A stretch of 64,000 nucleotides of DNA from an uncultured Gammaproteobacteria bacterium (GCA_964443495.1 CAYUCS010000002.1:23740-87739), one strand, 5' to 3'. Numbered from the stretch's first letter, positions 7,121-46,237 are shown. Notes: generated by a model not told the origin, from the sequence alone. Translations and numbers: made by a program.

Positions 7121-7133
7121 TGCCTTTCCTCCT

Positions 7134-8632: not shown

Positions 8633-8650
8633 GCCGATGCGATAATCCGA

Positions 8651-9376: not shown

Positions 9377-9400
9377 GTCATTTCCTCCTCTTGCAAGATA

Positions 9401-10722: not shown

Positions 10723-10755
10723 ACTCTCATTAAAAAAATACGCCTCCCTTGCCTG

Positions 10756-23745: not shown

Positions 23746-24999
23746 TTAATTTCTACCGACGTAAGGTGCCGTCTTCCTGTTTGCTTCAAGGAATGATACG
23801 ATTATTTCCGCGGATTTTTCCGGCTTGTCACCATTCAGCTCAGCTGCGACATTCCCGATGCTGCGCTTGAATCCGGCGTAATCCCGATCTATCTGCGCGA
23901 TCAAGGAGCTGAGCGCAGCCGTTGATCTCTCGTCGATGACGGTGCGAAAATCGGCACGTGCAATGTCACCTGAGGCATCGCAATAAGTAAGTGAGCAGCC
24001 CTGCTGGCGGGCCGTCTCAGAAAAAGTGAACTGGTCGATATTGTTAGGCACGGTAATCGATGGCACCTCAGCCTCAAGGCAATGCATTAACGTACCGTGA
24101 CCGCCCGAATGTATCACCATCTTCGCTTTTTTGGAAACGGCCAGACCGGGCAAATACTTGGCAATGTAAACACGGGAATCGCCCGCAAGCGGCTTGTCTA
24201 TCCAGTGCCGTTGTACTTGCGGCCCCAGGCTGACAACCGCGGCATAGCCTGCTGACAATACTGACGCGATGGCGGCGTTATAATAGCCGGCATCACCGAC
24301 CGAGCCGCCGAAAGAAATATATATAAACAGCGGGTTCTCCCTGACGAAATCATCCAGTCCTTGCGAGTGCCCCGCTTCCATATCAGCGGCAAGCGACCCT
24401 ATGTGCACGCACTTTGCCGCCAACGCATCTTCTGCTCGCACAGGGTCGATAAGACTGACACTTGGAATGAATATTTTGTCTGCCTTATCAAAAAGCTCGT
24501 CATACGATTCGGGAAATCCGATACCTAACGATTTTGCGGTTTTTTTCAGTCTCGGGAAAATGACATCCCGAGGATAGATGTATCCGAAATAGTTGTCCAT
24601 CCTGGAAGCCTTGGCGTCCGGGCCGACACCATAAGCCCCGCCGTAGCATGGCAGCAATGTCGCGTTGGTCAAGAAGACATAAGGTATCCCAAGCGCTTGG
24701 TTAATGAAGCATCCGGAAAACATCGGATCATTTACCACATAGTCGGGGGCGAATTTCTCAGCGGCCCTTATTTCGTACCGACGCAGTTCGACATAGAATT
24801 CAGGATCGCTCAAGGATTTGGCCGACTCAAAACCTCCTTCAAACAACTCAAAGCCATTGCGCACGATCAGGTCGGCAACCTTCCGATCAGCCGCGAATGC
24901 GGTTTTGTGTCCACGTTTTTCCGCGGCGCGAGCGACCGCCATGCACCGCATGGTATGGGCGAGGGCGTTCTCGGACAATGGCACGAATAGGATTCTCAT
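23746..24999 (-). CDS. GT1-family glycosyltransferase (MGT/UDP-glycosyltransferase-like)
   Basis: It has the N-terminal MRILFVPLSENALAHTMRCMAVA and the C-terminal HSGGHGTLMHCLEAEVPSITVPNNIDQF donor-binding motif. Confidence 0.75.
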   Translation of the reverse strand: MRILFVPLSENALAHTMRCMAVARAAEKRGHKTAFAADRKVADLIVRNGFELFEGGFESAKSLSDPEFYVELRRYEIRAAEKFAPDYVVNDPMFSGCFINQALGIPYVFLTNATLLPCYGGAYGVGPDAKASRMDNYFGYIYPRDVIFPRLKKTAKSLGIGFPESYDELFDKADKIFIPSVSLIDPVRAEDALAAKCVHIGSLAADMEAGHSQGLDDFVRENPLFIYISFGGSVGDAGYYNAAIASVLSAGYAAVVSLGPQVQRHWIDKPLAGDSRVYIAKYLPGLAVSKKAKMVIHSGGHGTLMHCLEAEVPSITVPNNIDQFTFSETARQQGCSLTYCDASGDIARADFRTVIDERSTAALSSLIAQIDRDYAGFKRSIGNVAAELNGDKPEKSAEIIVSFLEANRKTAPYVGRN

Positions 25000-25866
25000 T
25001 TAAATAATTTCACTGATAATTTCAGACAGGCGCGCTTTGACCCATTTCCCCTGATCCTGATCCATGAATCCGTCAACGAACAGCATGGCCCCGCAATAAG
25101 CGGCATAGGCGCTTACCTCCGGCATCGATGCCGAAACGAAAGACGAGCCTGGATCGTAACCTCGCCGCAATCCTTCCCAATCAGTCATCAGTCCTCCCCA
25201 CAAATAGACGTAACCCAGCTCGAGCAGCGGGTCGCCAGCTTGCGCGCCCTCCCAATCCAAGACCCCGGAAAGCTTCCCGTTTTTGAACAAGAGATTCTTG
25301 AGGACATAGTCACCGTGAAGAAGCGACGCGCGAACCCGGCTGGTCCCAGCGAGATTTGCCAATGCTGCGCACATGCGGCCGAACTCCTGCTTCGAAAGAA
25401 CCTGCGGAACTAGCGCGCAATATGCCTCCTTGGAATCAACAAGCTCGCTGACGGTTGCGGCGGCGGCACTAGGAGAAAAACGAGCCGGAGACCCTGACGA
25501 AACTTGCGGGCACTCAATCGCATGTATTTCACGCAAAACCCGGCCAGCTTCAAGCCAAACGGCTTGCCCGGCATCACCGAAGACTTTGACGGGTTCGCCG
25601 CCGACAGCCTCATACATCGCCAAGAAGGCGCCGCCCCCGATCGCTTCGTGCGCGATTAAGCGCGGGAAGCCGAATGATGCCTTAGCGGCTGAAAGAATGG
25701 CCTCCAGTTGCCGATAATGGCTCGCCTCCCGCCTCGTCGTCTTTGCGATCAGGCGTTCGTCAAGCAAGCAGACAAGATTGTTCTGGCTGTTAAGCCATGT
25801 GGCCTGGCGGGCCGGCAGCCCCGTCTTGCGTTCATAAAACTCCAAGATGTCGGTTTTATTGACCAT
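25000..25866 (-). CDS. aminoglycoside-phosphotransferase-like small-molecule kinase (APH/ChoK fold)
   Basis: It has the Brenner motif LLHGDYVLKNLLF followed by LDWEGAQAGDP. Its stop abuts the downstream gene's start. Confidence 0.75.
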   Translation of the reverse strand: MVNKTDILEFYERKTGLPARQATWLNSQNNLVCLLDERLIAKTTRREASHYRQLEAILSAAKASFGFPRLIAHEAIGGGAFLAMYEAVGGEPVKVFGDAGQAVWLEAGRVLREIHAIECPQVSSGSPARFSPSAAAATVSELVDSKEAYCALVPQVLSKQEFGRMCAALANLAGTSRVRASLLHGDYVLKNLLFKNGKLSGVLDWEGAQAGDPLLELGYVYLWGGLMTDWEGLRRGYDPGSSFVSASMPEVSAYAAYCGAMLFVDGFMDQDQGKWVKARLSEIISEII

Positions 25867-26557
25867 GCTTTTCTGCCAAGACTATGATATTTTTTCTGAA
25901 AATTCCTGGAAAAGGCCGCTCTAAAAAATCAAAAAATCGCTCGAACCGGTTCTTGTAAGCCGAGTGGGCCGTCCATCGGCGGGCGATGAATCCTGCATCA
26001 GACAAGGCAGCCTCCAATACTTTGTGAGTGAATAGCGACTTGTGCTGGAAATTATACGGCCTTTCCGGGTACTTATCCCTAAATTCGCAAAAATCAGGCA
26101 ATCTTCCAGCTAGCAGCTCTAGCCGGTACTGCAGATAAGCTATGTTCGGGGTCGCTACGATAATTACGCCCCCCGGCTTAAGCACTCGGCGAATTTCCCG
26201 AAGAGCCACTATCGGATCGACCAGATGTTCGATGACCTCGGAAAAGACTACGGTATCGAAAGTCGAATCCGCAAAAGGCAGTTGCTCGTGCTCGATATCG
26301 CAATGGAAGGCGTCGATGCCCCTGTTTCTGGCCGACTCGACCGCTGATTCCAAAAAATCTACGCCCGACACAATATTGTCTTTAATCTGAAGGAAATAAG
26401 AGAGATAGCCTGTCATGCAACCGACATCGAGCACGCGCTTTCCTTGCCCGACAATCTTTTCAATCTGGCTGATTTTGTCGTCCTTGATGAACTCCTGGTT
26501 GCTATTCTTGAAATTGCGGTCAAAATACCGATTGTATTCGATTTTGAGATTATTCAT
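25856..26557 (-). CDS. class I SAM-dependent methyltransferase
   Basis: It has motif I, VLDVGCMTGYLS, and the post-I acidic residue (GVDF). It overlaps the kinase gene by 11 nt. Confidence 0.8.
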   Translation of the reverse strand: MNNLKIEYNRYFDRNFKNSNQEFIKDDKISQIEKIVGQGKRVLDVGCMTGYLSYFLQIKDNIVSGVDFLESAVESARNRGIDAFHCDIEHEQLPFADSTFDTVVFSEVIEHLVDPIVALREIRRVLKPGGVIIVATPNIAYLQYRLELLAGRLPDFCEFRDKYPERPYNFQHKSLFTHKVLEAALSDAGFIARRWTAHSAYKNRFERFFDFLERPFPGIFRKNIIVLAEKHGQ

Positions 26558-26574
26558 ATTTAGCTTGATTTTGA

Positions 26575-26603
26575 AAATTAACCCGATTGCCTCGCCGTGT
26601 CAA
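26575..26603 (-). promoter_or_regulatory. putative promoter of the methyltransferase-kinase-GT-HIT operon
   Basis: On the minus strand it reads TTGACA (26603..26598), a 17-nt spacer, then TAATTT (26580..26575). Confidence 0.45.
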
Positions 26604-26696
26604 GGCCCGCAAATGCGGAAATGTTTGAATAAAATTCGCCGATATACTATATTTATCTTAACGATAATACCATCAGGGTAGCATTTATGCCTTGAT

Positions 26697-26725
26697 TTGA
26701 CAAAATAACGGAAGGTTGATATATT
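26697..26725 (+). promoter_or_regulatory. sigma70-like promoter of trpS
   Basis: It reads TTGACA (26697..26702), a 17-nt spacer, then TATATT (26720..26725). Confidence 0.6.
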
Positions 26726-26784
26726 ACAATAATTTGTTCACTTAAATGAAAAACCCAAAAATAACATCCAAGGAGGATAACAAG

Positions 26785-27771
26785 GTGAAAAGACTAATTA
26801 CGGGAATCAGGCCCACGGCAAACTTAACCGTTGCCAACCTGATCGGAGCCGCGGTTCCGTTACTCGATCTGCAAAAGAGCGATAACGAAATCCTGGTCTT
26901 CGTGGCCACGATGCACGGCCTGACCGACCACGAGCCCAATGAAATTATGGGCAGCGTCGATGAGGTCGTAAAAGACTACCTGGCACTCGGCCTTGATCCT
27001 GAACGGGTGACTATTTTTGACCAAAGGGCGGTACGCCGCCAAGTAGCGCTGCTGAAGCTTTATCTCGAGCGCCACATCACCGTAGCCCGAGCTTGCAGGG
27101 TGCCGACGCTCAAGGAAAAATTGCGCGAAGGACAGACGCCCGAGCAGGCCAACGTGCTACTGATGGGTTACCCCATCATGATGGCAGCCGATATCCTGCT
27201 TCAGGACGCGGAAATCGTTCCGGTCGGCAAAGACCAATATTCGCACATGGAAGTAGCTCGCGAGCTTACTGACGCCTTCAACGCAAAATACGGAAAGAAA
27301 CACCGCGTGTTCATCAGGCCGGAAACGCTTAACCGCGAAGAACCAGTAAACATCCTTGCGCTGGTCGGCGACACCAAGATGTCGAAATCAAAACCGGAAA
27401 GCGCTATTTTCCTGACAGATTCGCCTGCGGCAATCAAGAAAAAGATCATGAGAGCGGAAACCGCCCTCGAAGGCGAGATGTCGGAAAAGCTGGACAGCCT
27501 GGTCAAGATGGCCATCTCCCTCGCACCTCAACGCGAAGCTGAGGTCAAGTCCTTGATTGACAGCCACATGGCAGGAGAAAAGATGATGGGAAGTTTCAAG
27601 AAAATCCTCGTGGAGATTCTTACAGACTTCACCTCGACTTTCCAGGAAAAACGCTCAACGGTCAGCGATGGCCTCGTGCAAGACATCCTTGCCGCCGGCG
27701 CGCTGAAAGCCCAGAGCAACGCAGACAAAGTCCTGCTGCGTGTCGAGAAATCGCTTGGACTGATTCAGTAG
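26785..27771 (+). CDS. trpS: tryptophan--tRNA ligase
   Basis: TGIRPTANLTVANLIGA matches the TIGN-type HIGH region. It also has VPVGKDQYSHMEVARE and KMSKS. I start at the GTG at 26785 because AAGGAGG lies 8 nt upstream. The track ATG at 26746 has no SD and is only ~14 nt from the predicted TSS. Confidence 0.85.
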   Translation: MKRLITGIRPTANLTVANLIGAAVPLLDLQKSDNEILVFVATMHGLTDHEPNEIMGSVDEVVKDYLALGLDPERVTIFDQRAVRRQVALLKLYLERHITVARACRVPTLKEKLREGQTPEQANVLLMGYPIMMAADILLQDAEIVPVGKDQYSHMEVARELTDAFNAKYGKKHRVFIRPETLNREEPVNILALVGDTKMSKSKPESAIFLTDSPAAIKKKIMRAETALEGEMSEKLDSLVKMAISLAPQREAEVKSLIDSHMAGEKMMGSFKKILVEILTDFTSTFQEKRSTVSDGLVQDILAAGALKAQSNADKVLLRVEKSLGLIQ

Positions 27772-27780
27772 CCGTAAGGC

Positions 27781-27809
27781 GGGCCATTCGCAAGGATGGC
27801 CCTTTTTTT
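27781..27809 (+). terminator. intrinsic terminator-like hairpin immediately after trpS
   Basis: GGGCCAT-TCGCAAGG-ATGGCCC is followed by T7. Confidence 0.6.
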
Positions 27810-27817
27810 ATAAAAAC

Positions 27818-28915
27818 ATGCCGGAAAAAAAAGAAAAAGCAGCCAAAAATAGGTTTGAAAAACTGATTCGCGACGTCATAAGCGGGGACGACATAGACAC
27901 CGGCCTGCTTTCTGCCGTTTTCAAGGAACTTCTGGAACATTCCCTTGGCGAATCGAACGAAACCTCGCTAGGGGCGCTATTCGCGTCTTTGCAAACGCGA
28001 GGCGTTAAGGACGAGGAAATCGTGGCGCTGTTCAACGTCGTCCAGGACTATGACCGTATTCCGGCAGCATGCTCTTATGACCCCTGCTCGCTCTACGGCA
28101 TCGTGGGCAGCGGCAAGGACGAGTTCAAAACCTACAACGTGAGCACATGCGCGGCATTCGTGGCTGCCACGATGGGAATAAAAGTCGTAAAGAATGGCTC
28201 CCGGTCGGATACGAGCATGGCTGGAACCACGGACCTGCTCGAAGCGCTGGGCTATCCGGTCGATGCCGCCAACCATAATCACGACAGCTCCATCAAGGCT
28301 GCCAATATCGCGTTCAGCGATGCCCTGCCGCATTTCCCCTTGATGTCGAGGGAGTACGTCGGCAAGATCCTATTTTTAAACCCCTTGAGCTACGTCCTTT
28401 CCATCGCCAGCGGCATCGAATTCAAAAACATAGTATTCGGCGTTTCATTCGACGAAACGGAAAGGGTGTGCAAGCTTCTCCGCATGATCGGAATGAGGTC
28501 AGCCCTGGTCGTGGCCGGGAAAACGGACGACGGCAGGCACTTTGATGAGATATCGACCGTCGGACCGACCAAGATTTCCGAGCTGCGCAACGGTCAGATC
28601 AGGACATATGAAGTTTCCCCGGAAGAGCTTGGCCTGCGGAAGTCGTCACCTATCAGCATCGCGCAGCCGTCAAGCCTTGATGAGGCCAAAAAACTTTTTC
28701 TCGAAGTCATCACAGGGCGGGCCAAGCATGAGACTTCAAGCATAGTCGCTGCCAACGCCGGCGCGTTGTACTTTCTTGAACATGGTCCGGACGCGTCCGA
28801 CCTCAGGAGCAGCATCGCGAAAGCCCAGGGGGTCATAGATTCCGGCTCCACTTTCGAAACATTTAAAAAATTCATGGACTCAGCCGGCCGCGCCAGTACC
28901 GGCGACAAAGGATAA
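27818..28915 (+). CDS. glycosyl transferase family 3 protein, divergent anthranilate phosphoribosyltransferase (TrpD)-like
   Basis: GIVGSGKDEFKTYNVSTCAAF compares with the canonical GTGGDxxxTFNIST. VKNGSRSDTSMAGTTDLLEALG compares with the canonical KHGNR...GSADxLEALG. Both fold-defining motifs are present but substituted. Confidence 0.7.
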   Translation: MPEKKEKAAKNRFEKLIRDVISGDDIDTGLLSAVFKELLEHSLGESNETSLGALFASLQTRGVKDEEIVALFNVVQDYDRIPAACSYDPCSLYGIVGSGKDEFKTYNVSTCAAFVAATMGIKVVKNGSRSDTSMAGTTDLLEALGYPVDAANHNHDSSIKAANIAFSDALPHFPLMSREYVGKILFLNPLSYVLSIASGIEFKNIVFGVSFDETERVCKLLRMIGMRSALVVAGKTDDGRHFDEISTVGPTKISELRNGQIRTYEVSPEELGLRKSSPISIAQPSSLDEAKKLFLEVITGRAKHETSSIVAANAGALYFLEHGPDASDLRSSIAKAQGVIDSGSTFETFKKFMDSAGRASTGDKG

Positions 28916-28916
28916 A

Positions 28917-30167
28917 ATGACTGACCGAAAAACAACAACCGATGAGGTGGATAAGCTGAACGGGGTCTATTCCCACATGCTCAAGCATAGCCCCTTTTAC
29001 CGCGATTTCTACAAACGCTCTCCCAGCAGCCTTTCAAGCCTTGAAGACTTCCAATCCCTGCCGTTCATCAGCAAGAAGGTTTTGCAAGATGTAAAATTTA
29101 CCGACCGCTTATGCGTGGACATGAGACAGGTACGCGAAATCCATTATTCATCAGGCACGACCGCCAATCCGATAATCGCCGCCTACACCAGCCAAGACCT
29201 TCGAAACAGCCGGGAGCACTTGTCCGAAACCTGGAAGATGCAAGGAGTGGAACATGGAACAAGGTTTGCCATGCTGGCATCATACGGCCTTTTTTCGGCC
29301 GGACTGATAAACCACTATGCCATACAGCATGCGGGCGGCTTCACGATTCCGATCAGCAGCGCTAATTTGGAAAAAATCATCAAGGTGACCAAAGAACTTA
29401 ACCCTGAAATGGGCGCCGCCGTCTCATCTTTTTACATGTTTTTTATCGAACGTCTTCGGCTGGCTGGTGTGGACCCGCGAGAAATCGGATTCAAACGCCT
29501 TATTGCCGGCGGCGAATACCTATCAGAGTCCCAGCGCAAATACATCGAAAAGGAATTCGATGCCTTGCTTCTTTTCCAGTACGGCCTCGCGGAAATAGAC
29601 ACTGGCATTGCTGGCGAGTGCTCGTGCCAGAACGGGCTGCATCTTCTAAACGACTACACCTACGCTGAAATCATAGACCCTGAAACAGAAAAGCTCCTTT
29701 CTCCGGGAGACGAAGGAGAGCTTGTCCTCTCGCACATGTCGCGCGAGGCGACGCCGCTTCTGCGTTATCGCACGGGCGATATCACCAGGATACTGCCTGG
29801 CGCCTGTCCGTGCGGGCGAACCGCGCTCCGAATAGCGCCCATCAAAAGAAGGGTTGGTGACAGCCTCACCTACAAAGGATCTAATATCGACTTGGACGAA
29901 TTTGAATCGATTCTTGAGAAAACAGAAGCCATGAAACCCTTCCACCCGCACATCTGGCAATTGCGGCTCGAGGCATCCGGGGCAAAACGCAGCCTTGAAC
30001 TGAAAGTATTCCCATTAGGCAACGAGGTCGCGGACCTAACGCTGTTAAGCAGCCAGATCAGGCTGTCCGCAGGCGCGAATATCGCCGTTTCTGTTTTTAC
30101 GCAAGATGAGTTTTCTAAAATATCCGAAGGAAAGCTGAAAAAATTCATCGTAATCAACCAAGTATGA
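28917..30167 (+). CDS. PaaK-like adenylate-forming enzyme (phenylacetate-CoA ligase / F390 synthetase family)
   Basis: It has the IHYSSGTTANPI AMP-binding motif and YRTGD. The protein is 416 aa and starts 1 nt after the upstream stop. Confidence 0.75.
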   Translation: MTDRKTTTDEVDKLNGVYSHMLKHSPFYRDFYKRSPSSLSSLEDFQSLPFISKKVLQDVKFTDRLCVDMRQVREIHYSSGTTANPIIAAYTSQDLRNSREHLSETWKMQGVEHGTRFAMLASYGLFSAGLINHYAIQHAGGFTIPISSANLEKIIKVTKELNPEMGAAVSSFYMFFIERLRLAGVDPREIGFKRLIAGGEYLSESQRKYIEKEFDALLLFQYGLAEIDTGIAGECSCQNGLHLLNDYTYAEIIDPETEKLLSPGDEGELVLSHMSREATPLLRYRTGDITRILPGACPCGRTALRIAPIKRRVGDSLTYKGSNIDLDEFESILEKTEAMKPFHPHIWQLRLEASGAKRSLELKVFPLGNEVADLTLLSSQIRLSAGANIAVSVFTQDEFSKISEGKLKKFIVINQV

Positions 30168-31507
30168 CCATGGATGTAAAAACTATTGTCGCCGGCGAAT
30201 ACGTTCCCGACGGCACCCCTAAAGAAGTGGTGTCGCCTTTCGGAATGGAAAAAATCGGCATGATTGAAATGCTGGATGACCTCGCTGCGGAGCAGCGATC
30301 GGAAATCGCCGGAATGCCCGTCGCGACAAGCTACGAAAAAACGCTCGAGAGCCTGGCGGGACTGGCCGGCATCATAGAAAAGAAATCCGAAGAACTCTCC
30401 GCCTTGGCAGCCAAAGAAACCGGCAGCCCCATCGAATACCACAAAAACGACCTCGAGTGCGCCGTTGAGCTATTGAAGAACCTGGGGCGGATCCATGAAC
30501 TGGAGCAAAAATCATTCCGGTACGATCCCAAGGGGCGATGCTTGATCATTCCTCCGGCCAACCAACCCATCATCACGACCATCTTTACGGTCGCTACCGC
30601 CCTGCTCTATGGCAACAAGGTCACCTTCCGGCCTTCTTCTCGCACGCCCATGGCCGCCAATGAAATTATCCGCGCCTTTTACTCCTGCGGCATCCCGCCC
30701 GAGTCCCTGGCGCTGCTCGCTTCGTCAAACAGGCTGACTGAAGAACTTATCCGTTCCAAAGCCTTCGATGCCGTCATTTCTTTCGCGAGCAATGCCGTCA
30801 ACGCCAAAATAGCCATCTTCTGCGCAGAATCCGATACGGAGCTTCATGCCGAAAACGAGGGCTATGACTGGGCTTATGTCGACAGCAGCCTGCCATTCGA
30901 AACGGAACGGGCGGCTGACTTGCTGATCGAAAGCATGATCAAGCACAACGGCCAAATGTGCGATTCCATCAGAGGCATCGCCGTCCACCGGGATATTTAC
31001 GACGACCTCAAGCACAAGCTCGTCGCCAAGCTGTCACGCATCACCGCAGGCAATCCGCTTGATTCAGAAAACCGTCTAGGCTCGCTCCTTAGGGGAACCG
31101 GCGACCTGGCCGATGCATATGCTTCAAAAATCCACTCGTCCAGCACCCTCCTGCTGGACAAGGCTCCGTTGCAGCTGTTCGAAATTACCGGACTTTCAGA
31201 CGAAATCTGCTCACAAGCTCCTTTTGCGCCGATTATCTGGCTCTATCGCAGCGAACATCCGGAACATATCATTGAGAAGTGGAACGATGCCAACCCTTAC
31301 GGGCTCGGCTTTTCGATCTATTCCAGCAACAAGGAAGTGCAATCTCTTTTCGCAGGAAAAATACGCGCCGGAAGGATTAATATAAACGGCGGACACGCCG
31401 ATGTCGGCGTCTTCGACCCGTGGGGCGGCGTGCGGCGGAGCGGCTTCGGCGGCCCGCAATATTGGTTTGAACTATTCACCAATCGTAAATTCATAAGCCA
31501 TGGATAA
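30164..31507 (+). CDS. aldehyde dehydrogenase family protein
   Basis: It has ALDH fold motifs, including the catalytic Cys context NGQMCDSIRG and an ENEG-type general-base region. An ATGA overlap couples it to the upstream gene. Confidence 0.8.
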   Translation: MTMDVKTIVAGEYVPDGTPKEVVSPFGMEKIGMIEMLDDLAAEQRSEIAGMPVATSYEKTLESLAGLAGIIEKKSEELSALAAKETGSPIEYHKNDLECAVELLKNLGRIHELEQKSFRYDPKGRCLIIPPANQPIITTIFTVATALLYGNKVTFRPSSRTPMAANEIIRAFYSCGIPPESLALLASSNRLTEELIRSKAFDAVISFASNAVNAKIAIFCAESDTELHAENEGYDWAYVDSSLPFETERAADLLIESMIKHNGQMCDSIRGIAVHRDIYDDLKHKLVAKLSRITAGNPLDSENRLGSLLRGTGDLADAYASKIHSSSTLLLDKAPLQLFEITGLSDEICSQAPFAPIIWLYRSEHPEHIIEKWNDANPYGLGFSIYSSNKEVQSLFAGKIRAGRININGGHADVGVFDPWGGVRRSGFGGPQYWFELFTNRKFISHG

Positions 31508-32171
31508 TATCAAGATAGTGATACTTAGCGGGGCTTCGGCCGACGGGAAAACATCGGTCAGCAGGGGCAGCTCCAGCAAAGAGTTCGGCCAAGCCTTGAG
31601 CGAACGCATGTCTGAGCCGGTCAAACGCTGGCGCAACTGGTGCGATATCGTCATTGTCGGGCGCGCTACTGTCACCTGCGACAATCCGTCGCTGGTATCA
31701 GGCCTGAGGCCAGGCTCGGTTCGCGGGCTTATCGACCGTTTTCTTCAGCTCGATTACCATTCTCAGCGGAACATCCTGGATGACCGCACGCCTACGATCG
31801 TTTTTACGGCCCAGGAACCGACCGATGAATTGAAAGCGATGGCAGGCGTTGAATTCGTCGTCTTGAAGGATGATAATTTTTTTTCCGATCTGAAACAGGC
31901 CTTGTCGGACAAGGGGCTGGGCAAGGTCCTTTTTGAGTCGGGCGGGACATTGACTCCGCTCTTGCTGGAAGCTGGCATTGCCGACGAGATGGTTTTCGCC
32001 CACTTCCCTTTCATTGTTGGCGGAACCGCCCCGACCTTGTGCGATGGCCCAGGAATAAGCGGCATAGAACAGCGCCTCCGATTGGATTTGCTTGGCCTGG
32101 AAGAAATTGATGGCATGATTACGGCGCACTACCGGGTAAACTACGGCCAAGCGCCTGAAATTGACATGTAG
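31500..32171 (+). CDS. RibD C-terminal-domain (dihydrofolate-reductase-like) reductase
   Basis: VILSGASADGKTS, VIVGRATV and FESGGTLTPLLLEAGIADEMVF are typical of the RibD_C / pyrimidine reductase family. It overlaps the upstream gene by 8 nt. Confidence 0.7.
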   Translation: MDNIKIVILSGASADGKTSVSRGSSSKEFGQALSERMSEPVKRWRNWCDIVIVGRATVTCDNPSLVSGLRPGSVRGLIDRFLQLDYHSQRNILDDRTPTIVFTAQEPTDELKAMAGVEFVVLKDDNFFSDLKQALSDKGLGKVLFESGGTLTPLLLEAGIADEMVFAHFPFIVGGTAPTLCDGPGISGIEQRLRLDLLGLEEIDGMITAHYRVNYGQAPEIDM

Positions 32172-32239
32172 CGAATCTTGCTATATTATTGAAAACCGCT
32201 CATTCACATCTGACAAAATAACGACCAAGGAGGCAGGCG

Positions 32240-33223
32240 ATGAAAAATGACTCGCAGAAGGCCAATGCGCAAGGGTGTCCGCCGAAGTCGATCGGAGGAA
32301 ATCGGATTGTCGGCACGACCTATCACGAGATTGAAAGAATGACGCGGCCGATAAGCTGCCGGTCGATCATAAACGGATGTTATTTCCTGGAGCGCGGCAT
32401 AATGGCCTCCTTTATCAATTCTGACAACGGCCAAATCGCGCGCATCATGTCCGGACAGGAAAAAGTCGCAGTCGTGACAGGATTCGGCTTGACCGGAATG
32501 CCGCATCTGGGAACCAAGATAATCCGCGACGAGCTGGCATTCATGCTGAGCCTCGGGAACAAGGTTTACATCTGCGTCAGTTCGGCTGACGCTGTCGTTC
32601 GTGCCAAGTCGGCAATCGATGCCGAGCAAAGCGAATCGGCTTTGGCCGAATTCTTTTCCTCGCTTCAACTCCACCCAGGCTGCCGCTTCATGCGAAACGA
32701 TGAAATCATGCAAGTCGTCGAAAAGTCGCCTTGGAACGAAAAAGAGGCCGGGGCTATTTTTGAACGGATCTACGAAACGAGCTACGATAGCCCGAAAGGA
32801 AAAGCTCTTGCCTGCATGGCGAAATCTATCATAGGGATTTACTGTGGCCAGGCACCATCTACCCGATGCCTGGTACCGCTAGGCATAGATGAATTCGACA
32901 ATGCCAGCTTCGTCACGGCAACAGCGCAAGCCATCGGGCTACGTCCGCCCATCTTCACCTTTAACCGTATCGTGCCCGGGTACGGCACAATAAAGATGGG
33001 CAAAAGCATCCCCCGGCAAAGCCTGGTCATGTCCGGATCACCCGCCGAAGAATACGCCAAGATGGCGCCCTACATCGGTGATCGTGACCACGAAATCCAC
33101 GAACCATGCGCCCTTTGCAGCGCAATATTCTTTTCTGGACACGCGATAGACATTACAGATCGCCACGCCAGACGGAACGCCCACGACAACCCGGAAACAA
33201 TCATAAAGGAAATACTAGGTTAG
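32240..33223 (+). CDS. truncated class-I aminoacyl-tRNA-synthetase-like protein (TrpRS/TyrRS-like catalytic core, no anticodon-binding domain)
   Basis: VAVVTGFGLTGMPHLGT has a HIGH-like PHLG, LGIDEFDNASF resembles the class Ic GxDQ region, and KMGKS is KMSKS-like. AAGGAGG lies 6 nt upstream of the ATG at 32240. The protein is too short to hold a C-terminal tRNA-binding domain. Confidence 0.55.
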   Translation: MKNDSQKANAQGCPPKSIGGNRIVGTTYHEIERMTRPISCRSIINGCYFLERGIMASFINSDNGQIARIMSGQEKVAVVTGFGLTGMPHLGTKIIRDELAFMLSLGNKVYICVSSADAVVRAKSAIDAEQSESALAEFFSSLQLHPGCRFMRNDEIMQVVEKSPWNEKEAGAIFERIYETSYDSPKGKALACMAKSIIGIYCGQAPSTRCLVPLGIDEFDNASFVTATAQAIGLRPPIFTFNRIVPGYGTIKMGKSIPRQSLVMSGSPAEEYAKMAPYIGDRDHEIHEPCALCSAIFFSGHAIDITDRHARRNAHDNPETIIKEILG

Positions 33224-33289
33224 GTATTTTACCAAACGGGCCACCCTCCAAAGGTGGCCCTATTTTTATACGTTAACCATGGCGAGAAA

Positions 33290-35068
33290 TCATGCTTGCG
33301 ACAGGCTTTCCAGTTCTATTTCCAGCTCGATCAGTTTGATTTCGTCGTCATCGATCGCTTCTTTCAGCTCTTTCATCCTGATGTTGCGCTCGCGGTCGAA
33401 GCGATAATTGTCGGCTTCATACTCCTTGAGCAGCTTCTGCTCGGTCGCCTTGTTGAACTCAAGATTCTTTTGGATCTTGTCCTGCTCCCTCTTGATTTCT
33501 TTACGCTTTTCCTGTTTCAGCCTGCGCGCTTCCTTTTCTTCTTCCCTAGAAACCTTCGGCGCAGATTCCTGGGCGGCGCCGAGTCCGGCCTTGGTATAAA
33601 GGCTCAACAAATAATCTTCGTAATCGAGGCCGCTCAGCTTCACCCGGCCCTCGCCGACTTCAACGATCTTCTCCGCCACGCTTCGGATGAACTCGCGATT
33701 GTGGCTGATGAACAGGATGGTAGCCTTGCTCTTGGCCAGCGCTTGGCTCAACGTCTCGACCGTCTCGAAATCCAAGTGGTTGGTCGGCTCGTCCAGCAAA
33801 AGGACGTTGCATTCGCGCAGCAGCATACCGGCAAGGCACAGCCTGGCCTTCTCACCACCTGACAACACGGCGATGCTCTTCTTGATGTCGTCGCCGTAAA
33901 AAAGGAAATTGCCCGCTATCCGATAGACATCCTCGATGCTCGTATTCAGGCCGGCCTGCCGCTGCAGATACGCGCCGACCTGCTCCTTGGGGTCTAGCTT
34001 GCTCGTCACGTTCTGGTCATAATACGCGATCTTGGTGTGGGCCGGCCAAGAGAATTTGCCGGACAGCGCCGGCAAGTCGCCGCTCAGAGTCTTCAAAAAA
34101 GTCGTCTTGCCCTGGCCGTTGTCGCCCAAGACGGCCACATGGTCGCCGCGACGGATATCCAGCGGCGCAACCTCGGCCACCCGTTTGCCCGGATAGCCGA
34201 TGGCCAAGTCCTGCATCTGGATGGCTATCCCCTTCTTGTTCTCCACCTCCGGGATGATGATCCGCGCCGTCTTCAGCGATTGCCGGATCGCCACCTCCGA
34301 CAGGCGATCCATCTGCTTGATCTTCGACTGCGCTTGGGCGGCCTTCGAGGCCTTGTACCTGAACCGGTCGATGAACTCTTGCAGATGCTTCTTCTGCTGC
34401 TTGATTTTCTTGTTGTATTTCTCGTCCGTCTTCTCCTTCAGATCCTTGTAAGCCAAATACTCGTCCAAAGAGCACGGAAACCAATATAGCTTACCCTGAT
34501 CGACTTCCAGCGTCTTGTCACAGGTCGAACGCAAGAACTCCCGATCATGGGAAATGACCATATACGACCCGTGATAGGTCTTGAGAAAGGCCTCGAGCAG
34601 CAACAGGGTGCTCAGGTCGAGATGGTTGGTCGGCTCGTCCAAGAGGAGCAGATTGGGGTCGCGCAGCAGCATCGCCGCCAATTTGACGCGCATCCGGTAG
34701 CCGCCCGAGAGGTCGCTAACCCTGCTCTCGAGCAAGGCGTTCTTCAGCTGGAACACTCCCGCCATCTTGGCGCACTCCCAGCTCTCCTTGCTGCTATCAC
34801 GCTCCAGGAAACCGATGACCGTGTCACCGTCCTGGAATCGCTCCTCCTGTTCCAGGTAGCCGATCCGCGTGGTATCGAAGACGGCAATCTCCCCGCTATC
34901 GATTCCCTCTTCGCCCAAAATCATCCTGAACAGCGTCGTCTTGCCCGCGCCATTGCGCCCGATAACCCCGATCCGCTGCTTTTTGGCCACATAAATAGAA
35001 GCCTCATCGAAAATGACATGAGGCCCGAAGGATTTCGAAATCTTATTGATGTTTACCAATCCTGACAT
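33290..35068 (-). CDS. ABC-F family ATPase (two ABC cassettes, no TM domain) with C-terminal coiled-coil
   Basis: It has two Walker A motifs (GRNGAGKTT, GDNGQGKTT), two LSGG signatures (LSGGYRM, LSGGEKA) and two Walker B motifs (LLLLDEPTNHLD twice). Confidence 0.9.
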   Translation of the reverse strand: MSGLVNINKISKSFGPHVIFDEASIYVAKKQRIGVIGRNGAGKTTLFRMILGEEGIDSGEIAVFDTTRIGYLEQEERFQDGDTVIGFLERDSSKESWECAKMAGVFQLKNALLESRVSDLSGGYRMRVKLAAMLLRDPNLLLLDEPTNHLDLSTLLLLEAFLKTYHGSYMVISHDREFLRSTCDKTLEVDQGKLYWFPCSLDEYLAYKDLKEKTDEKYNKKIKQQKKHLQEFIDRFRYKASKAAQAQSKIKQMDRLSEVAIRQSLKTARIIIPEVENKKGIAIQMQDLAIGYPGKRVAEVAPLDIRRGDHVAVLGDNGQGKTTFLKTLSGDLPALSGKFSWPAHTKIAYYDQNVTSKLDPKEQVGAYLQRQAGLNTSIEDVYRIAGNFLFYGDDIKKSIAVLSGGEKARLCLAGMLLRECNVLLLDEPTNHLDFETVETLSQALAKSKATILFISHNREFIRSVAEKIVEVGEGRVKLSGLDYEDYLLSLYTKAGLGAAQESAPKVSREEEKEARRLKQEKRKEIKREQDKIQKNLEFNKATEQKLLKEYEADNYRFDRERNIRMKELKEAIDDDEIKLIELEIELESLSQA

Positions 35069-39781: not shown

Positions 39782-40993
39782 CTAGCGCCATACCGCCTCA
39801 ACCTCCCTTGGCGACCTGACGCTCATTCCTTGAAGAATCAGAACCGGTAGAAGAATCAGTCCGATTGCGATACCGAAGTACATATAGCCGAATGACAATC
39901 CATTTTGACTGACGAGCCGCGAAAGCACGAGCGGCAGCCACAGCGTGCTGACCAAAGTGAAAAACGTCATCACGGAAATAAGCGTCGCTTTATAGCCGGA
40001 TGCGTTGAACTCATCGAACAGCTGAGCTTCGAAAATTATATTGCGCGTCCGGTCGTATGCCGGAAACAACGCGAAGGCCAGCACTATCGCAACCGCATTA
40101 TGAATAAGGCCGACCAAAATCAATAGCAGCACCAGATATGCTGCGTCGAAAAAATAAAACGCGCTCGGCGAAAGCTTCCGCAGATGATGGATCTTGGTTC
40201 CGCCATAAGCGGCAAGAAGGCTCCCGATCGCCAGCAAGAAGCCGAACCACTCGACCGGAATCCCGTTTTCCCTGAACATGATCTCCCTATACATCGATGA
40301 CTGGTCGAAGCCGGATGAGACGATCCCGAAAATCAGGAAGACGAAAAACATTCTCAGAAGCGGCATCTCCTTGGACGCCTTGAGCAACCTTTTCAAAGAA
40401 CCCCTCTTGCCAGCTTTTTGGACTTCGACGTGGACCCTTGGAACCCTCATTGAATAGACCAGCAAGAAAGTCGCGAACAGGCAAAAAAAGCCGACTATGA
40501 AAGGCATTCTCGGATCCAGCTTATACGTCAGCGGGACGAGCCCGACCAGAAAGACATTGCCGATCAGGCCGAAGCTTTGAGCCTTTCCCATTATGCTGCT
40601 GTACTCACGGTCCCGTCCGAGCTCTTTCAACGTCTCGTGCATGAACGCTTGCATCGTTCCGGAGGCAAAGGCCATGCCTCCGAAATACCCGGCAGAGCCG
40701 ATCAGTCCGCCGACAAATCCCGGAAAAAATACGTACGGCAAAACCGACACCGCGCTGATGAATGAACCGACCAGCAAAGCGAATTTGTGGCCGAACCTAT
40801 CCGCGAAGTACCCGGATGGAATTTCCAGGATGAGCTGCACGATGCCTGTCACGCTCGCGATGATGCCAAGCTCTTTCAAATTTACGCCGCCGCGATCGAC
40901 AAGATAAATCGCGATCAAAGGCAAATAGACCCTCTTGGTGAAGATCTTATAATAATTGTATTTTATGATATTTTTTTCCAACTGCTCAGTCAT
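39782..40993 (-). CDS. MFS transporter
   Basis: It has about 12 hydrophobic helices and a GYFADRFGHK motif (MFS loop 2-3, D-R-x-G-R/H-K-like). Confidence 0.75.
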   Translation of the reverse strand: MTEQLEKNIIKYNYYKIFTKRVYLPLIAIYLVDRGGVNLKELGIIASVTGIVQLILEIPSGYFADRFGHKFALLVGSFISAVSVLPYVFFPGFVGGLIGSAGYFGGMAFASGTMQAFMHETLKELGRDREYSSIMGKAQSFGLIGNVFLVGLVPLTYKLDPRMPFIVGFFCLFATFLLVYSMRVPRVHVEVQKAGKRGSLKRLLKASKEMPLLRMFFVFLIFGIVSSGFDQSSMYREIMFRENGIPVEWFGFLLAIGSLLAAYGGTKIHHLRKLSPSAFYFFDAAYLVLLLILVGLIHNAVAIVLAFALFPAYDRTRNIIFEAQLFDEFNASGYKATLISVMTFFTLVSTLWLPLVLSRLVSQNGLSFGYMYFGIAIGLILLPVLILQGMSVRSPREVEAVWR

Positions 40994-44281: not shown

Positions 44282-44282
44282 A

Positions 44283-46164: not shown

Positions 46165-46237
46165 GGCACGGGGTGAAGGAATCGAACCCTCGCCATAGGT
46201 TTTGGAGACCCACGTACTACCATTATACTAACCCCGC
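46164..46237 (-). tRNA. tRNA-Trp (anticodon CCA), CCA end encoded
   Basis: I folded the cloverleaf by hand. The acceptor is GCGGGGU/ACCCCGU, the anticodon stem-loop is UGGGU-CUCCAAA-ACCUA, the T-arm is GAGGG-UUCGAUU-CCUUC, and the 3' end is GCCA. Confidence 0.9.

What the first reader, a model, noticed from the sequence alone, without database searches (positions are those of the whole stretch)
27818..33223. Tightly coupled cassette: TrpD-like PRTase, PaaK-like ligase, ALDH, RibD_C reductase and a truncated class-I aaRS paralogue next to trpS
Five genes between 27818 and 32171 are joined by a 1-nt gap or by overlapping start/stop codons, followed 68 nt later by a sixth. The TrpD-like protein has both fold motifs, but they are substituted: GSGKD for GTGGD, and KNGSR for KHGNR. 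This argues for a substrate other than anthranilate, or for altered chemistry. A RibD_C-type reductase normally reduces an N-ribosylamine to an N-ribitylamine. That is exactly the type of product a TrpD-like enzyme would make from PRPP and an aryl amine. An aldehyde dehydrogenase plus an aryl-acid adenylating enzyme could prepare or activate an aromatic acid. The last gene keeps HIGH-like (PHLG) and KMSKS-like (KMGKS) motifs but lacks an anticodon-binding domain. Stand-alone aaRS catalytic cores like this are used as amino-acid ligases in secondary or cofactor metabolism. The position next to trpS hints at indole or aryl-amine chemistry. I do not know of a described pathway with this gene set.
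Basis: partly seen in the sequence, partly recalled or inferred. Interest (0 to 1): 0.65.

Follow-up and report, generated by a model that had tools for sequence, protein, structure and literature searches.

The report
Tryptophan-linked orphan pathway gene cluster
A real, conserved but uncharacterised nine-gene cluster in an ultra-small (CPR) bacterium couples a modified TrpD-type sugar-phosphate transferase and a riboflavin-type reductase to tryptophan-tRNA-synthetase genes, pointing to an undescribed tryptophan-linked pathway that recurs across CPR bacteria and DPANN-like archaea.

Summary
The cassette is real. Its domains, junctions and motif substitutions are as reported, but it has four tightly coupled genes plus a fifth, not five plus a sixth. 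The conserved unit is larger: nine genes (glycosyltransferase, APH-like kinase, methyltransferase, trpS, TrpD-like, PaaK-like ligase, ALDH, RibD_C, TrpRS-like). All nine recur in two other loci, one of them rearranged. The host is probably a Patescibacteria (CPR) bacterium. Across 20 distinct loci the invariant core is TrpD-like plus RibD_C. Seventeen also carry a TrpRS-family gene; one carries two tRNA-Trp genes instead. One protein fuses RibD_C to the TrpRS-like enzyme. The TrpD-like subfamily keeps the PRPP/Mg ligands but loses the anthranilate-carboxylate ligands. The reductases keep the catalytic Asp and Glu but have a hydrophobic residue at the pyrimidine-specificity position. The TrpRS-like protein folds as an archaeal-type TrpRS with its ATP motifs and a shortened C-terminal domain. 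The window's trpS is an ordinary lineage-typical TrpRS. My best reading is a tryptophan-linked N-ribityl-amine conjugate pathway; the product is unknown. I found no published description. Related TrpRS paralogues were reported in 2017 without this context.

The parts
23746..24999 (-). GT1-family (macrolide/natural-product type) glycosyltransferase, 417 aa
   Evidence: Pfam EryCIII-like_C and Glyco_tran_28_C, weak hits. PDB CalG1 and OleD. Orthologues lie in the same cluster in L007 (48% identity) and L009 (35%).
25000..25866 (-). APH-family small-molecule kinase, 288 aa
   Evidence: Pfam APH, 72.6 bits. Weak PDB match to hygromycin B kinase. Conserved in the L007 and L009 clusters.
25856..26557 (-). 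SAM-dependent methyltransferase, 233 aa
   Evidence: Pfam Methyltransf_11/23/31. 58% identical to the L007 orthologue and 53% to the L009 orthologue.
26697..26725 (+). Promoter-like site TTGACA-17-TATATT (11/12 matches, with extended TG) upstream of trpS
   Evidence: Consensus scan and direct reading of the sequence. Consensus match only; function was not tested.
26785..27771 (+). trpS: full-length bacterial (CPR-type) tryptophanyl-tRNA synthetase, 328 aa from the GTG start
   Evidence: TIGR00233 scores 228.5 bits, above its 176.75 cut-off. A continuum of CPR TrpRS homologues runs from 80% down to 45% identity. The T(V/I)AN variant of the HIGH motif is general in CPR TrpRS. The gene is linked to the cassette in L007, L009, L014 and L027.
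27781..27812 (+). Intrinsic-terminator-like hairpin (GGGCCATTC...GGATGGCCC followed by T7) between trpS and the TrpD-like gene
   Evidence: Scan. Folding energy -22 kcal/mol, and a homologous hairpin plus T-run occurs at the same place in L007, which is 29% G+C.
27818..28915 (+). TrpD-family phosphoribosyltransferase of a distinct subfamily (GSGKD / KNGSRS), 365 aa
   Evidence: Pfam Glycos_transf_3, 124 bits. TIGR01245 scores 180.2, below its 199.05 cut-off. PDB AnPRT, E 4e-35. Subfamily gap and signature residues.
28917..30167 (+). PaaK / F390-synthetase-family adenylating ligase, 416 aa
   Evidence: TIGR02155 scores 231.7, far below its 646 cut-off. PDB B. thetaiotaomicron PaaK 4R1L, E 2e-56, and AjiA1. 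Present in the window, L007, L009, L011, L014, L019, L025 and L028.
30164..31507 (+). Aldehyde dehydrogenase superfamily enzyme, 447 aa, with the catalytic Cys (NGQMC) and Glu (AENEG) present
   Evidence: Pfam Aldedh, 175 bits, plus LuxC at E 1.7e-7. No NCBIfam equivalog cut-off is reached. Catalytic motifs were read directly from the translation.
31500..32171 (+). RibD_C-family NADPH reductase, 223 aa
   Evidence: Pfam RibD_C, 85 bits. PDB archaeal DAROPP reductase 6P8C and RibG 2B3Z. The catalytic Asp and Glu are invariant, and the specificity position is L/I/M/F, in all cluster orthologues.
32161..32189 (+). Promoter-like site TTGACA-17-TATTAT (11/12 matches) just upstream of the aaRS-like gene
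   Evidence: Consensus scan. Consensus match only.
32240..33223 (+). TrpRS-derived paralogue (archaeal/eukaryotic-type fold) with a shortened C-terminal domain, 327 aa
   Evidence: Only 3 proteins match among 5.8 billion, and about a dozen true family representatives among 1.84 billion. AF2 model pLDDT 87.7. The top Foldseek hits are all archaeal or eukaryotic TrpRS, with 3A04 at E 5e-14 and TM 0.70. TGFGLTGxxHLG, GIDE and KMGKS are invariant.
33238..33270 (+). Terminator-like hairpin closing the cassette, shared with the convergent ABC-F gene
   Evidence: Scan and fold.

Best explanation
This is an accessory metabolic gene cluster of a Patescibacteria (CPR) bacterium. It encodes an undescribed pathway linked to tryptophan.

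**Proposed steps**
1. *Inferred from family chemistry plus conserved residues.* The TrpD-like enzyme transfers the 5-phosphoribosyl group of PRPP onto an amine that is not anthranilate, probably a less polar aromatic amine.
2. *Inferred.* The RibD_C reductase reduces the ring-opened (Schiff-base) N-ribosylamine with NADPH to an N-(5-phosphoribityl)amine, as riboflavin reductases do.
3. *Inferred.* The TrpRS-derived enzyme uses ATP to adenylate tryptophan or a close alpha-amino-acid analogue. It then transfers it onto a hydroxyl or amine of that ribityl intermediate, working like GluQRS or MshC.
4. *Weakly inferred.* The ALDH oxidises an aldehyde to an aryl-acetic-type acid, and the PaaK-like ligase activates it for a second acylation.
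5. *Weakly inferred.* The glycosyltransferase, APH-like kinase and methyltransferase decorate or mask the product.

**What is shown**
- Gene content, order and junctions.
- Conservation of the unit across many loci.
- Subfamily signatures of the TrpD-like and RibD_C proteins.
- The fold of the aaRS-like protein.
- The fusion of RibD_C with the aaRS-like protein.
- The window's trpS is the lineage-typical TrpRS, kept beside the cassette; its role (supply, co-regulation or partner) is unresolved.

The product and every substrate are unknown.
For: **The nine-gene unit is conserved.** All nine genes recur in L007 in the same order, although L007 is 29% G+C against 52% in the window. They recur again in L009 with trpS inverted and MT-APH-GT moved to the other end.

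**The core recurs widely.** Of 20 distinct loci carrying the TrpD-like gene, 18 have RibD_C and 17 have a class-Ic aaRS gene adjacent. L023 instead has two tandem tRNA-Trp genes at the head of the operon. L014 has a tRNA-Trp gene inside the cluster.

**A fusion links two of the enzymes.** P0142 joins RibD_C to the aaRS-like protein.

**TrpD-like subfamily.**
- Conserved: D243/E244, S109 and the 5'-phosphate loop, which correspond to the PRPP/Mg ligands.
- Changed: the Asn of KHGNR is replaced by Ser.
- Changed: the helix-alpha8 Arg position is variable.
- Both changed positions are the anthranilate-carboxylate ligands described in PMC9835598.

**RibD_C.** The catalytic Asp (DNPSL) and Glu (ExGG) are invariant. 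The pyrimidine-specificity position is Lys, Thr or Asn in riboflavin enzymes (PMC3631187) but L/I/M/F here.

**aaRS-like protein.** It has a TrpRS fold, invariant ATP motifs and a conserved acidic residue (D117) at the position of the alpha-amine-binding Glu.

**Variant clusters swap in other enzymes that handle tryptophan or amino-aldehydes.** These include PrnB, a PLP decarboxylase, a HemL-like aminomutase and an M20 deacylase.

**Other readings excluded.** The proteins match no known defence system, the module was not found in viral contigs, and no other trp genes occur among about 40 window ORFs.
Against: - No substrate or product has been identified, so steps 3-5 rest on analogy alone.
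- An intrinsic terminator separates trpS from the cassette.
- Close TrpS homologues (60-77% identical) in related genomes have no cassette next to them. In the window, trpS could therefore be a neighbour rather than a component.
- The PrnB-type variants lack any aaRS gene, so aminoacylation is not universal.
- Minimal operons lack the ALDH and the ligase.
- A phosphorylated ribityl conjugate is an odd end product for organisms with such small genomes.
Confidence: 0.4

Rival explanations
1. The cluster makes a toxic antimetabolite that targets TrpRS or tryptophan metabolism. The in-cluster TrpRS is the self-immunity copy. The glycosyltransferase, kinase or nucleotidyltransferase mask the toxin inside the producer.
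For: - aaRS immunity genes inside biosynthetic clusters are an established pattern, for example mupirocin/IleRS, indolmycin/TrpRS and albomycin/SerRS (PMC5388404 and PMC9437257).
- L020 carries two bacterial TrpRS genes 4 kb apart. The in-operon copy belongs to its own clade and is only 45-48% identical to the other copy.
- The GT, APH and NTP_transf_2 proteins belong to the enzyme families used for antibiotic self-protection.
- An ABC-F ribosomal-protection-like gene lies next door.
Against: - The window's TrpS is not divergent. It is 74-80% identical to TrpS of relatives without the cassette and shares their T(V/I)AN motif.
- Cluster-linked TrpS genes of different lineages are each closest to ordinary CPR TrpRS, not to one another.
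- The ABC-F gene is not conserved with the cluster.
- The RibD_C-aaRS-like fusion argues that the TrpRS paralogue is a pathway enzyme.
Confidence: 0.2
2. The pathway depends on tRNA-Trp. In one version the shortened TrpRS-like enzyme, possibly borrowing the anticodon-binding domain of a full-length TrpRS partner across a dimer, loads the cassette's product onto tRNA-Trp. In another, the TrpD-like and RibD_C enzymes modify tryptophan while it is esterified to tRNA-Trp, where its alpha-amine is a better nucleophile.
For: - tRNA-Trp genes lie inside or at the head of the operon in L014 and L023.
- A full-length TrpRS of the host's own type accompanies the shortened paralogue in nearly every locus.
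- Mukai et al. 2017 reported extra TrpRS-A/tRNA-Trp pairs and TrpRS-A-like and ORF1 paralogues of unknown function in CPR and DPANN, and suggested heterodimers.
- A HemL-like enzyme in L032 recalls the Glu-tRNA to glutamate-semialdehyde route.
Against: - There is no direct evidence of tRNA binding.
- The window pairs a bacterial-type TrpS with an archaeal-type-derived paralogue, whose dimer interfaces probably differ.
- The window's nearest tRNA-Trp gene is 13 kb away, in an ordinary tRNA cluster.
- The isoelectric points of the paralogues vary from 5 to 10.
Confidence: 0.12
3. The TrpD-like/RibD_C pair is a salvage route to a ribitylaminopyrimidine, a precursor of flavin or deazaflavin type, made from a free aminopyrimidine and PRPP. 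Its position beside trpS is incidental.
For: - N-(5-phosphoribosyl)aminopyrimidines are the natural substrates of RibD_C reductases.
- A TrpD-type enzyme could in principle make one from PRPP and an exocyclic aromatic amine.
- PRPP synthetase is encoded in the window.
Against: - The pyrimidine-specificity position is hydrophobic in every cluster reductase.
- No other rib or F420 genes lie nearby.
- This reading does not explain the recurrent TrpRS and tRNA-Trp linkage, the fusion with the TrpRS-like protein, or the ALDH, ligase and tailoring genes.
Confidence: 0.08
4. These are ordinary housekeeping genes: a genuine TrpD from tryptophan biosynthesis and unrelated neighbours that are adjacent by chance.
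For: The TrpD-like protein scores 180 bits against TIGR01245, only slightly below the 199 cut-off.
Against: - The subfamily is separated from canonical TrpD by a bit-score gap and has altered motifs.
- No trpE, G, F, C, A or B genes are found in the window.
- Synteny is conserved across about 20 loci from very different genomes.
Confidence: 0.02

Closest known systems
Anthranilate phosphoribosyltransferase TrpD (class IV PRT; Pfam PF00591/PF02885; TIGR01245)
   Same: - Same two-domain fold along the full length (PDB AnPRT, E 4e-35).
- The PRPP/Mg ligands are conserved: the D-E pair, the Ser of NxS and the phosphate loop.
- It probably performs the same chemistry, transferring the ribose-5-phosphate of PRPP onto an amine nitrogen.
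   Different: - GSGKD replaces GTGGD, and KNGSRS replaces KHGNR.
- Both anthranilate-carboxylate ligands are lost.
- The helix-alpha8 region is remodelled (FCDAxxYFPRMxxEYVGKF).
- Its TIGR01245 score is below the equivalog cut-off.
- It never occurs with other trp genes. It always occurs with RibD_C and usually with TrpRS-family genes.
Riboflavin-pathway pyrimidine reductases (RibD C-terminal domain / RibG / Rib7 / archaeal ArfC-type)
   Same: DHFR-like fold, conserved NADPH-site Thr, and catalytic Asp and Glu. It probably performs the same Schiff-base reduction of an N-ribosylamine to an N-ribitylamine.
   Different: - The specificity position is L/I/M/F instead of Lys, Thr or Asn.
- All NCBIfam scores are far below their cut-offs.
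- No rib genes lie nearby.
- In some organisms it is fused to a TrpRS-like protein or to an AP_endonuc_2 (sugar isomerase-like) domain.
aaRS paralogues that act as ATP-dependent amino-acid ligases on non-tRNA or non-canonical acceptors (GluQRS/YadB, MshC, amino acid:carrier-protein ligases)
   Same: A class I catalytic core with intact HIGH- and KMSKS-type motifs and a reduced or missing anticodon-binding domain. It is encoded within a metabolic gene cluster.
   Different: It derives from archaeal-type TrpRS rather than from GluRS, CysRS or SerRS. Its acceptor is unknown, and it is always accompanied by a full-length TrpRS. The resemblance is drawn from general knowledge and was not tested here.
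[quoted passage not shown] 2017, Life 7:8, PMC5370408)
   Same: The same organisms and the same theme: extra archaeal-type TrpRS paralogues with indels, clustered with TrpRS and tRNA-Trp genes, function declared unclear. L013 shows a comparable set of three or four class-Ic genes.
   Different: The text of that paper does not mention phosphoribosyl, TrpD, RibD or aldehyde. Whether the window protein equals their 'TrpRS-A-like' could not be checked, because no sequences are held.
aaRS self-immunity genes in antibiotic clusters (indolmycin-resistant TrpRS, mupirocin MupM/IleRS, albomycin SerRS)
   Same: A full-length aaRS gene embedded in a cluster of biosynthetic and tailoring genes. L020 has a true second TrpRS copy.
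   Different: The window's TrpS is not divergent from the housekeeping TrpRS of related genomes. Whether the genome holds a second copy is unknown.

Membership tests
TrpD (anthranilate phosphoribosyltransferase) | Glycosyl-transferase family 3 two-domain fold | tested here: met
   PF00591 scores 124 bits. PDB AnPRT chains match at E 4e-35 over residues 17-349.
TrpD (anthranilate phosphoribosyltransferase) | Score above the TIGR01245 equivalog cut-off | tested here: not met
   180.2 bits against a cut-off of 199.05. There is a bit-score gap between the subfamily (200 or more) and canonical TrpD (136 or less).
TrpD (anthranilate phosphoribosyltransferase) | GTGGD loop, and the Asn of KHGNR plus the helix-alpha8 Arg that hold the anthranilate carboxylate (PMC9835598) | tested here: not met
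   The loop reads GSGKD and the second motif KNGSR, so Asn is replaced by Ser. The Arg position is variable across the subfamily.
TrpD (anthranilate phosphoribosyltransferase) | PRPP/Mg2+ ligands (D-E pair, Ser of the NxS motif) | tested here: met
   D243, E244 and S109 are invariant in the subfamily.
TrpD (anthranilate phosphoribosyltransferase) | Genomic context with other trp biosynthesis genes | tested here: not met
   No trp genes occur among about 40 window ORFs scanned or in the related loci.
Riboflavin-pathway reductase (RibD_C / Rib7) | Fold and the catalytic Asp and Glu | tested here: met
   PF01872 scores 85 bits. The Asp of DNPSL and the Glu of ExGG are invariant in 20 cluster orthologues.
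Riboflavin-pathway reductase (RibD_C / Rib7) | Pyrimidine-recognising residue (Lys in bacteria, Thr in fungi, Asn in archaea; PMC3631187), and NCBIfam cut-offs | tested here: not met
   The position is Leu in the window and L/I/M/F in the DGK-motif orthologues (14 sequences read); the gut-type orthologues (L020, L022-L024, L027) lack that motif. TIGR00227 scores 86.6 against a cut-off of 150; TIGR01508 scores 75.3 against 186.
Phenylacetate-CoA ligase PaaK | Equivalog-level similarity (TIGR02155 / NF041878) | tested here: not met
   About 232 bits against cut-offs of 646 and 700. Membership holds only at the family and fold level (PDB 4R1L, E 2e-56).
Tryptophanyl-tRNA synthetase (for the 327-aa paralogue) | Class Ic Rossmann core with HIGH- and KMSKS-type motifs | tested here: met
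   PHLG and KMGKS are invariant in the family. The top 39 Foldseek hits are archaeal or eukaryotic TrpRS.
Tryptophanyl-tRNA synthetase (for the 327-aa paralogue) | Full C-terminal anticodon-binding domain and equivalog-level score | tested here: not met
   The tail is 71 aa, against 115-130 aa in true TrpRS. TIGR00233 scores 15 bits against a cut-off of 176.75, and the best archaeal TrpRS model scores 51 against 451.
Tryptophanyl-tRNA synthetase (for the 327-aa paralogue) | Charges tRNA-Trp with tryptophan | not testable with these tools
   This needs ATP-PPi exchange and aminoacylation assays.
Tryptophanyl-tRNA synthetase (for trpS 26785-27771) | Equivalog score, catalytic motifs and Trp-pocket motif | tested here: met
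   TIGR00233 scores 228.5, above 176.75. KMSKS, GKDQ and YPIMMAADIL are present. T(V/I)AN is the CPR-wide form of the HIGH motif.
aaRS self-immunity gene of an antibiotic cluster | A second, divergent copy beside a sensitive housekeeping copy in the same genome | tested here: inconclusive
   The window TrpS is not divergent from non-cluster relatives. The rest of the genome cannot be searched. L020 does have two copies.
Cyclodipeptide synthase (class-Ic-like, uses aa-tRNA) | Loss of the ATP-binding HIGH and KMSKS motifs | tested here: not met
   Both motifs are retained and invariant. Pfam and NCBIfam report only tRNA-synt_1b and TrpRS/TyrRS models for this protein.
Known anti-phage defence systems (PADLOC) | Match of cluster proteins to defence-system models | tested here: not met
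   Only a generic methyltransferase hit was found, and none for the core enzymes. The module is absent from viral contigs.

The most novel reading that the evidence does not exclude
The module is a natural add-on to tRNA-Trp aminoacylation. The TrpD-like, RibD_C and accessory enzymes would build, or modify on the tRNA, a tryptophan-related non-canonical amino acid. The shortened TrpRS paralogue would then load it onto tRNA-Trp, using the anticodon-binding domain of the neighbouring full-length TrpRS in trans. The outcome would be either a new tRNA-dependent biosynthetic route or a conditional change in what UGG codons insert in CPR and DPANN organisms.
Probability: 0.08. Interest if true: 0.95.

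Novelty: new variant of a known kind. Interest (0 to 1): 0.66.

Why it matters
CPR bacteria and DPANN archaea have tiny genomes with almost no biosynthesis, so a conserved five- to nine-gene pathway is a large investment and is probably important for their symbiotic lifestyle.

The module gives the first metabolic context for the orphan TrpRS paralogues (TrpRS-A-like, ORF1) whose function has been open since 2017. It also defines a new specificity class in two textbook enzyme families, TrpD and RibD.

The finding yields directly testable enzymology: PRPP, an amine and NADPH for the first two enzymes, and ATP-PPi exchange for the paralogue.

If the product turns out to be a TrpRS-directed antimetabolite, or if the paralogue acts on tRNA-Trp, the result would bear on antibiotic discovery or on natural variation of the genetic code.

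Tried and rejected
- **Regulatory RNA upstream of trpS or the cassette.** A search for a T-box or any other known RNA element found nothing in Rfam, either at gathering thresholds or at E up to 1.
- **Defence system.** PADLOC gave no hits for the core proteins.
- **Viral or mobile origin.** Neither the TrpD-like nor the aaRS-like alignment matched any IMG/VR contig.
- **Cluster-specific TrpS adaptation.** I first took the T-V-A-N variant of the HIGH motif to be cluster-specific. It is common to CPR TrpRS in general, so I dropped the idea.
- **Tryptophan depletion as a sign of Trp-starvation control.** TrpS and the TrpD-like protein contain no Trp, but the other cluster proteins are not depleted. 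The evidence is too weak to use.
- **Isoelectric point as a proxy for tRNA binding.** Values for the paralogue family range from 5 to 10, which is uninformative.
- **Literature.** Eight searches found no description of a cluster combining a TrpD-like gene, RibD and TrpRS. Only Mukai et al. 2017 is related.
- **Unavailable resources.** The AFDB fold library was not on the machine. The Mukai paper has no held supplements, so its TrpRS-A-like sequences could not be compared.
- **Rest of the genome.** The search for a second TrpRS or other trp genes elsewhere in the window organism's genome could not be run.

Full report
**1. The observation**

The ORF map confirms the following on the + strand:
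- TrpD-like, 27818-28915
- PaaK-like ligase, 28917-30167, after a 1-nt gap
- ALDH, 30164-31507, overlapping by 4 nt
- RibD_C, 31500-32171, overlapping by 8 nt
- a TrpRS-like gene, 32240-33223, after 68 nt

Pfam and NCBIfam confirm each family, but none of the five reaches an equivalog cut-off. The scores are TrpD 180.2 against 199.05, PaaK about 232 against 646, RibD_C 86.6 against 150, and TrpRS models 51 or less against 451. The quoted motifs (GSGKD, KNGSR, PHLG, KMGKS) are all present.

trpS lies immediately upstream. Its likely start is the GTG at 26785, behind an AAGGAGG Shine-Dalgarno sequence, which matches the 328-aa gene called elsewhere.

**2. The true unit and its host**

The TrpRS-like protein has only two relatives among 5.8 billion clustered proteins. 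The locus of one of them, L007, is 29% G+C against 52% in the window. Yet it carries the same nine genes in the same order: GT, APH-like kinase and methyltransferase on one strand, then trpS, TrpD-like, ligase, ALDH, RibD_C and TrpRS-like on the other. The flanking genes differ.

A third locus, L009, has all nine genes rearranged. trpS is divergent, and MT-APH-GT follow the TrpRS-like gene. Protein identities to the window range from 24% to 77%. The conserved unit therefore spans 23746-33223. The ABC-F gene downstream is not part of it.

The window's TrpS and AspRS group with proteins labelled Candidatus Falkowbacteria and other Patescibacteria. The host is probably a CPR bacterium.

**3. The wider family**

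The TrpD-like protein belongs to a sharply delimited subfamily. About 45 cluster representatives score 200-455 bits, then canonical TrpD follows at 136 bits or less. I mapped the contexts of distant members and of 18 metagenomic loci found with a subfamily profile. Together these give 20 distinct loci.

| Feature beside the TrpD-like gene | Loci (of 20) |
|---|---|
| RibD_C | 18 |
| A class-Ic aaRS gene (bacterial TrpS, archaeal-type TrpRS, or the shortened paralogue; often two to four of them) | 17 |
| No aaRS gene: PrnB-type clusters (L011, L019) | 2 |
| No aaRS gene: operon headed by two tandem bacterial-type tRNA-Trp genes (L023) | 1 |

Further details:
- L014 has a tRNA-Trp gene inside the cluster.
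- L020 has two bacterial TrpRS genes 4 kb apart. The in-operon copy belongs to a separate clade.
- One protein, P0142, is a RibD_C-TrpRS-like fusion.
- Accessory genes vary between loci: ALDH, PaaK-like ligase, a PLP decarboxylase resembling histidine decarboxylase, a HemL-like aminomutase, an M20 deacylase, a Pol-beta-type nucleotidyltransferase, GT1 or GT2 glycosyltransferases, a methyltransferase and an ADH.
- The module was not found in viral contigs and matches no known defence system.

**4. What the individual proteins say**

*TrpD-like.*
- The Mg/PRPP ligands (D243/E244, S109) and the phosphate loop are conserved.
- The Asn of KHGNR is Ser throughout the subfamily.
- The helix-alpha8 Arg position is variable.
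- Those two changed residues hold the anthranilate carboxylate in TrpD (PMC9835598).
- The surrounding region is replaced by an aromatic-rich signature, FCDAxxYFPRMxxEYVGKFLFxNPLSY.

*RibD_C.*
- The catalytic Asp and Glu of riboflavin reductases are invariant.
- The position that reads the pyrimidine C2 substituent is Lys, Thr or Asn in riboflavin enzymes (PMC3631187). Here it is L/I/M/F in the orthologues that keep the DGK motif.

Together these features indicate PRPP-dependent N-ribosylation of a non-anthranilate, less polar amine, followed by Schiff-base reduction to an N-ribitylamine.

*TrpRS-like protein.*
- The model is confident (pLDDT 87.7, pTM 0.86).
- Its best structural matches are all archaeal or eukaryotic TrpRS (3A04, E 5e-14, TM 0.70).
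- TGFGLTGxxHLG, GIDE and KMGKS are invariant.
- An Asp sits where TrpRS has the alpha-amine-binding Glu (the residue's role in TrpRS is from my own knowledge).
- The tail after KMGKS is 71-79 aa across the family, against 115-130 aa in true TrpRS.
- The family is tiny: about a dozen 296-323-aa representatives among 1.84 billion.

*Ligase and ALDH.* The ligase is closest to aryl-acetate-type PaaK enzymes and to AjiA1. The ALDH keeps both the catalytic Cys and Glu (read directly from the sequence).

**5. Status of trpS**

The window's TrpS is an ordinary CPR TrpRS:
- It sits in a continuum of homologues from 80% to 45% identity.
- Its T-V-A-N variant of the HIGH motif is general in CPR.
- Homologues at 77%, 74%, 68%, 64% and 60% identity lie in unrelated neighbourhoods.
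- Cluster-linked TrpS genes of other lineages are each closest to other CPR TrpRS, not to each other.

A strong terminator-like hairpin separates trpS from the TrpD-like gene, and it is conserved in L007. The cassette is therefore a patchily distributed accessory. It is repeatedly found beside the TrpRS or tRNA-Trp locus in several independent arrangements. This argues for functional or regulatory coupling, but it does not show that the window's trpS is an immunity copy.

**6. Mechanism and rivals**

The model I favour (confidence about 0.4) is a tryptophan-linked conjugate pathway:
1. PRPP plus an amine gives an N-ribosylamine (TrpD-like).
2. This is reduced to an N-ribitylamine-5-phosphate (RibD_C).
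3. The TrpRS-derived ligase adenylates Trp, or an analogue, and transfers it to that intermediate.
4. The ALDH and ligase supply and activate an aryl-acid.
5. The GT, kinase and methyltransferase tailor the product.

Only the genomic facts and residue patterns are shown. All substrates are inferred.

Rival readings are listed in their own section, with the evidence for and against each:
- a TrpRS-directed antimetabolite with immunity (0.2)
- a tRNA-Trp-dependent route (0.12)
- a ribitylaminopyrimidine salvage route (0.08)
- chance or canonical TrpD (0.02)

**7. Comparison with the known, and novelty**

Each enzyme fails the membership test for its nearest characterised family, although it plausibly works like that family. 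Mukai et al. [quoted passage not shown] The text of that paper contains no mention of phosphoribosyl, TrpD, RibD or aldehyde. Eight literature searches found no description of this module. I rate it a new variant of a known kind: an orphan metabolic cluster that includes an aaRS paralogue. Interest is 0.66.

Noticed in passing
window 239-11430 (- strand): A compact NAD-salvage regulon. It comprises an NAD synthase/nitrilase fusion, PRPP synthetase (3819-4802), NAD kinase, nicotinate phosphoribosyltransferase, ADP-ribosylglycohydrolase, an isochorismatase-type (PncA-like) hydrolase and an NrtR Nudix-type regulator. The PRPP synthetase shows that the organism can make the PRPP the cassette would need.
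   Followed up: partly
window 42038-45374 (- strand), next to tRNA-Trp 46164-46237: A low-G+C island (34-35% against about 52% elsewhere). It encodes a 747-aa S8 subtilase-family protein and a 363-aa AAA ATPase, immediately downstream of a tRNA-Thr/Tyr/Trp cluster. It looks like a horizontally acquired two-gene module inserted at a tRNA locus.
   Followed up: partly
window 27781-27812; L007 about 5500-5535: The terminator hairpin between trpS and the TrpD-like gene is conserved in sequence (GGCCATTC...GAATGGC plus a T-run) between genomes of 52% and 29% G+C. No promoter is evident before the next gene. This suggests regulated read-through.
   Followed up: partly
P0142 (526 aa; found in the representative search): A natural fusion of an N-terminal RibD_C reductase with a C-terminal TrpRS-like paralogue. 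Its genomic context could not be looked up.
   Followed up: partly
L023 7855-8003; L014 16018-16089: Two tandem, slightly different bacterial-type tRNA-Trp(CCA, G73) genes lie directly upstream of an M20-nucleotidyltransferase-TrpD-like-RibD_C operon. A single tRNA-Trp gene lies inside another cluster.
   Followed up: yes
L020 2028-3020 and 7117-8094 (also L022, L024; one of these contigs is labelled human gut metagenome, 25-27% G+C): A minimal operon: nucleotidyltransferase, TrpD-like, RibD_C, TrpRS, and a PLP decarboxylase resembling histidine decarboxylase. Its TrpRS is a paralogue only 45-48% identical to a second TrpRS 4 kb upstream.
   Followed up: partly
L011 14266-17621; L019 9993-12132: A variant of the cluster without any aaRS gene. 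Instead it carries a PrnB-like (tryptophan-rearranging, IDO/TDO-related) protein, a 337-aa protein with no Pfam match and a GT1 glycosyltransferase. Chorismate mutase, prephenate dehydratase, prephenate dehydrogenase and aminotransferase genes lie upstream.
   Followed up: partly
window 33290-35068 (- strand): An ABC-F protein passes the NCBIfam 'ribosomal protection-like' equivalog cut-off (394 bits against 380). It is convergent with the cassette but is not conserved next to it in L007 or L009.
   Followed up: partly
window 26785-28915 and orthologues: TrpS and the TrpD-like protein contain no tryptophan residues in the window, in L007 and in most orthologues. The window background is 0.85% Trp, and the other cluster proteins have 1-6 Trp each. 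Mukai et al. noted the same for TrpRS-A1, ORF1 and the bacterial TrpRS.
   Followed up: partly
window 35986-37605 and 39782-40993 (- strand): A second, much more canonical aldehyde dehydrogenase (Pfam Aldedh, 318 bits) and an MFS transporter lie a few kb downstream of the cassette. No link to the cassette was established.
   Followed up: no
L013 8613-10004; L032 5252-6481: In an archaeal-looking locus the RibD_C domain is fused to an N-terminal AP_endonuc_2 (xylose-isomerase-like TIM barrel) domain. In L032 a HemL-like glutamate-semialdehyde aminomutase homologue (307 bits) follows RibD_C. Both hint at sugar-isomerisation or amino-aldehyde chemistry in variant pathways.
   Followed up: no
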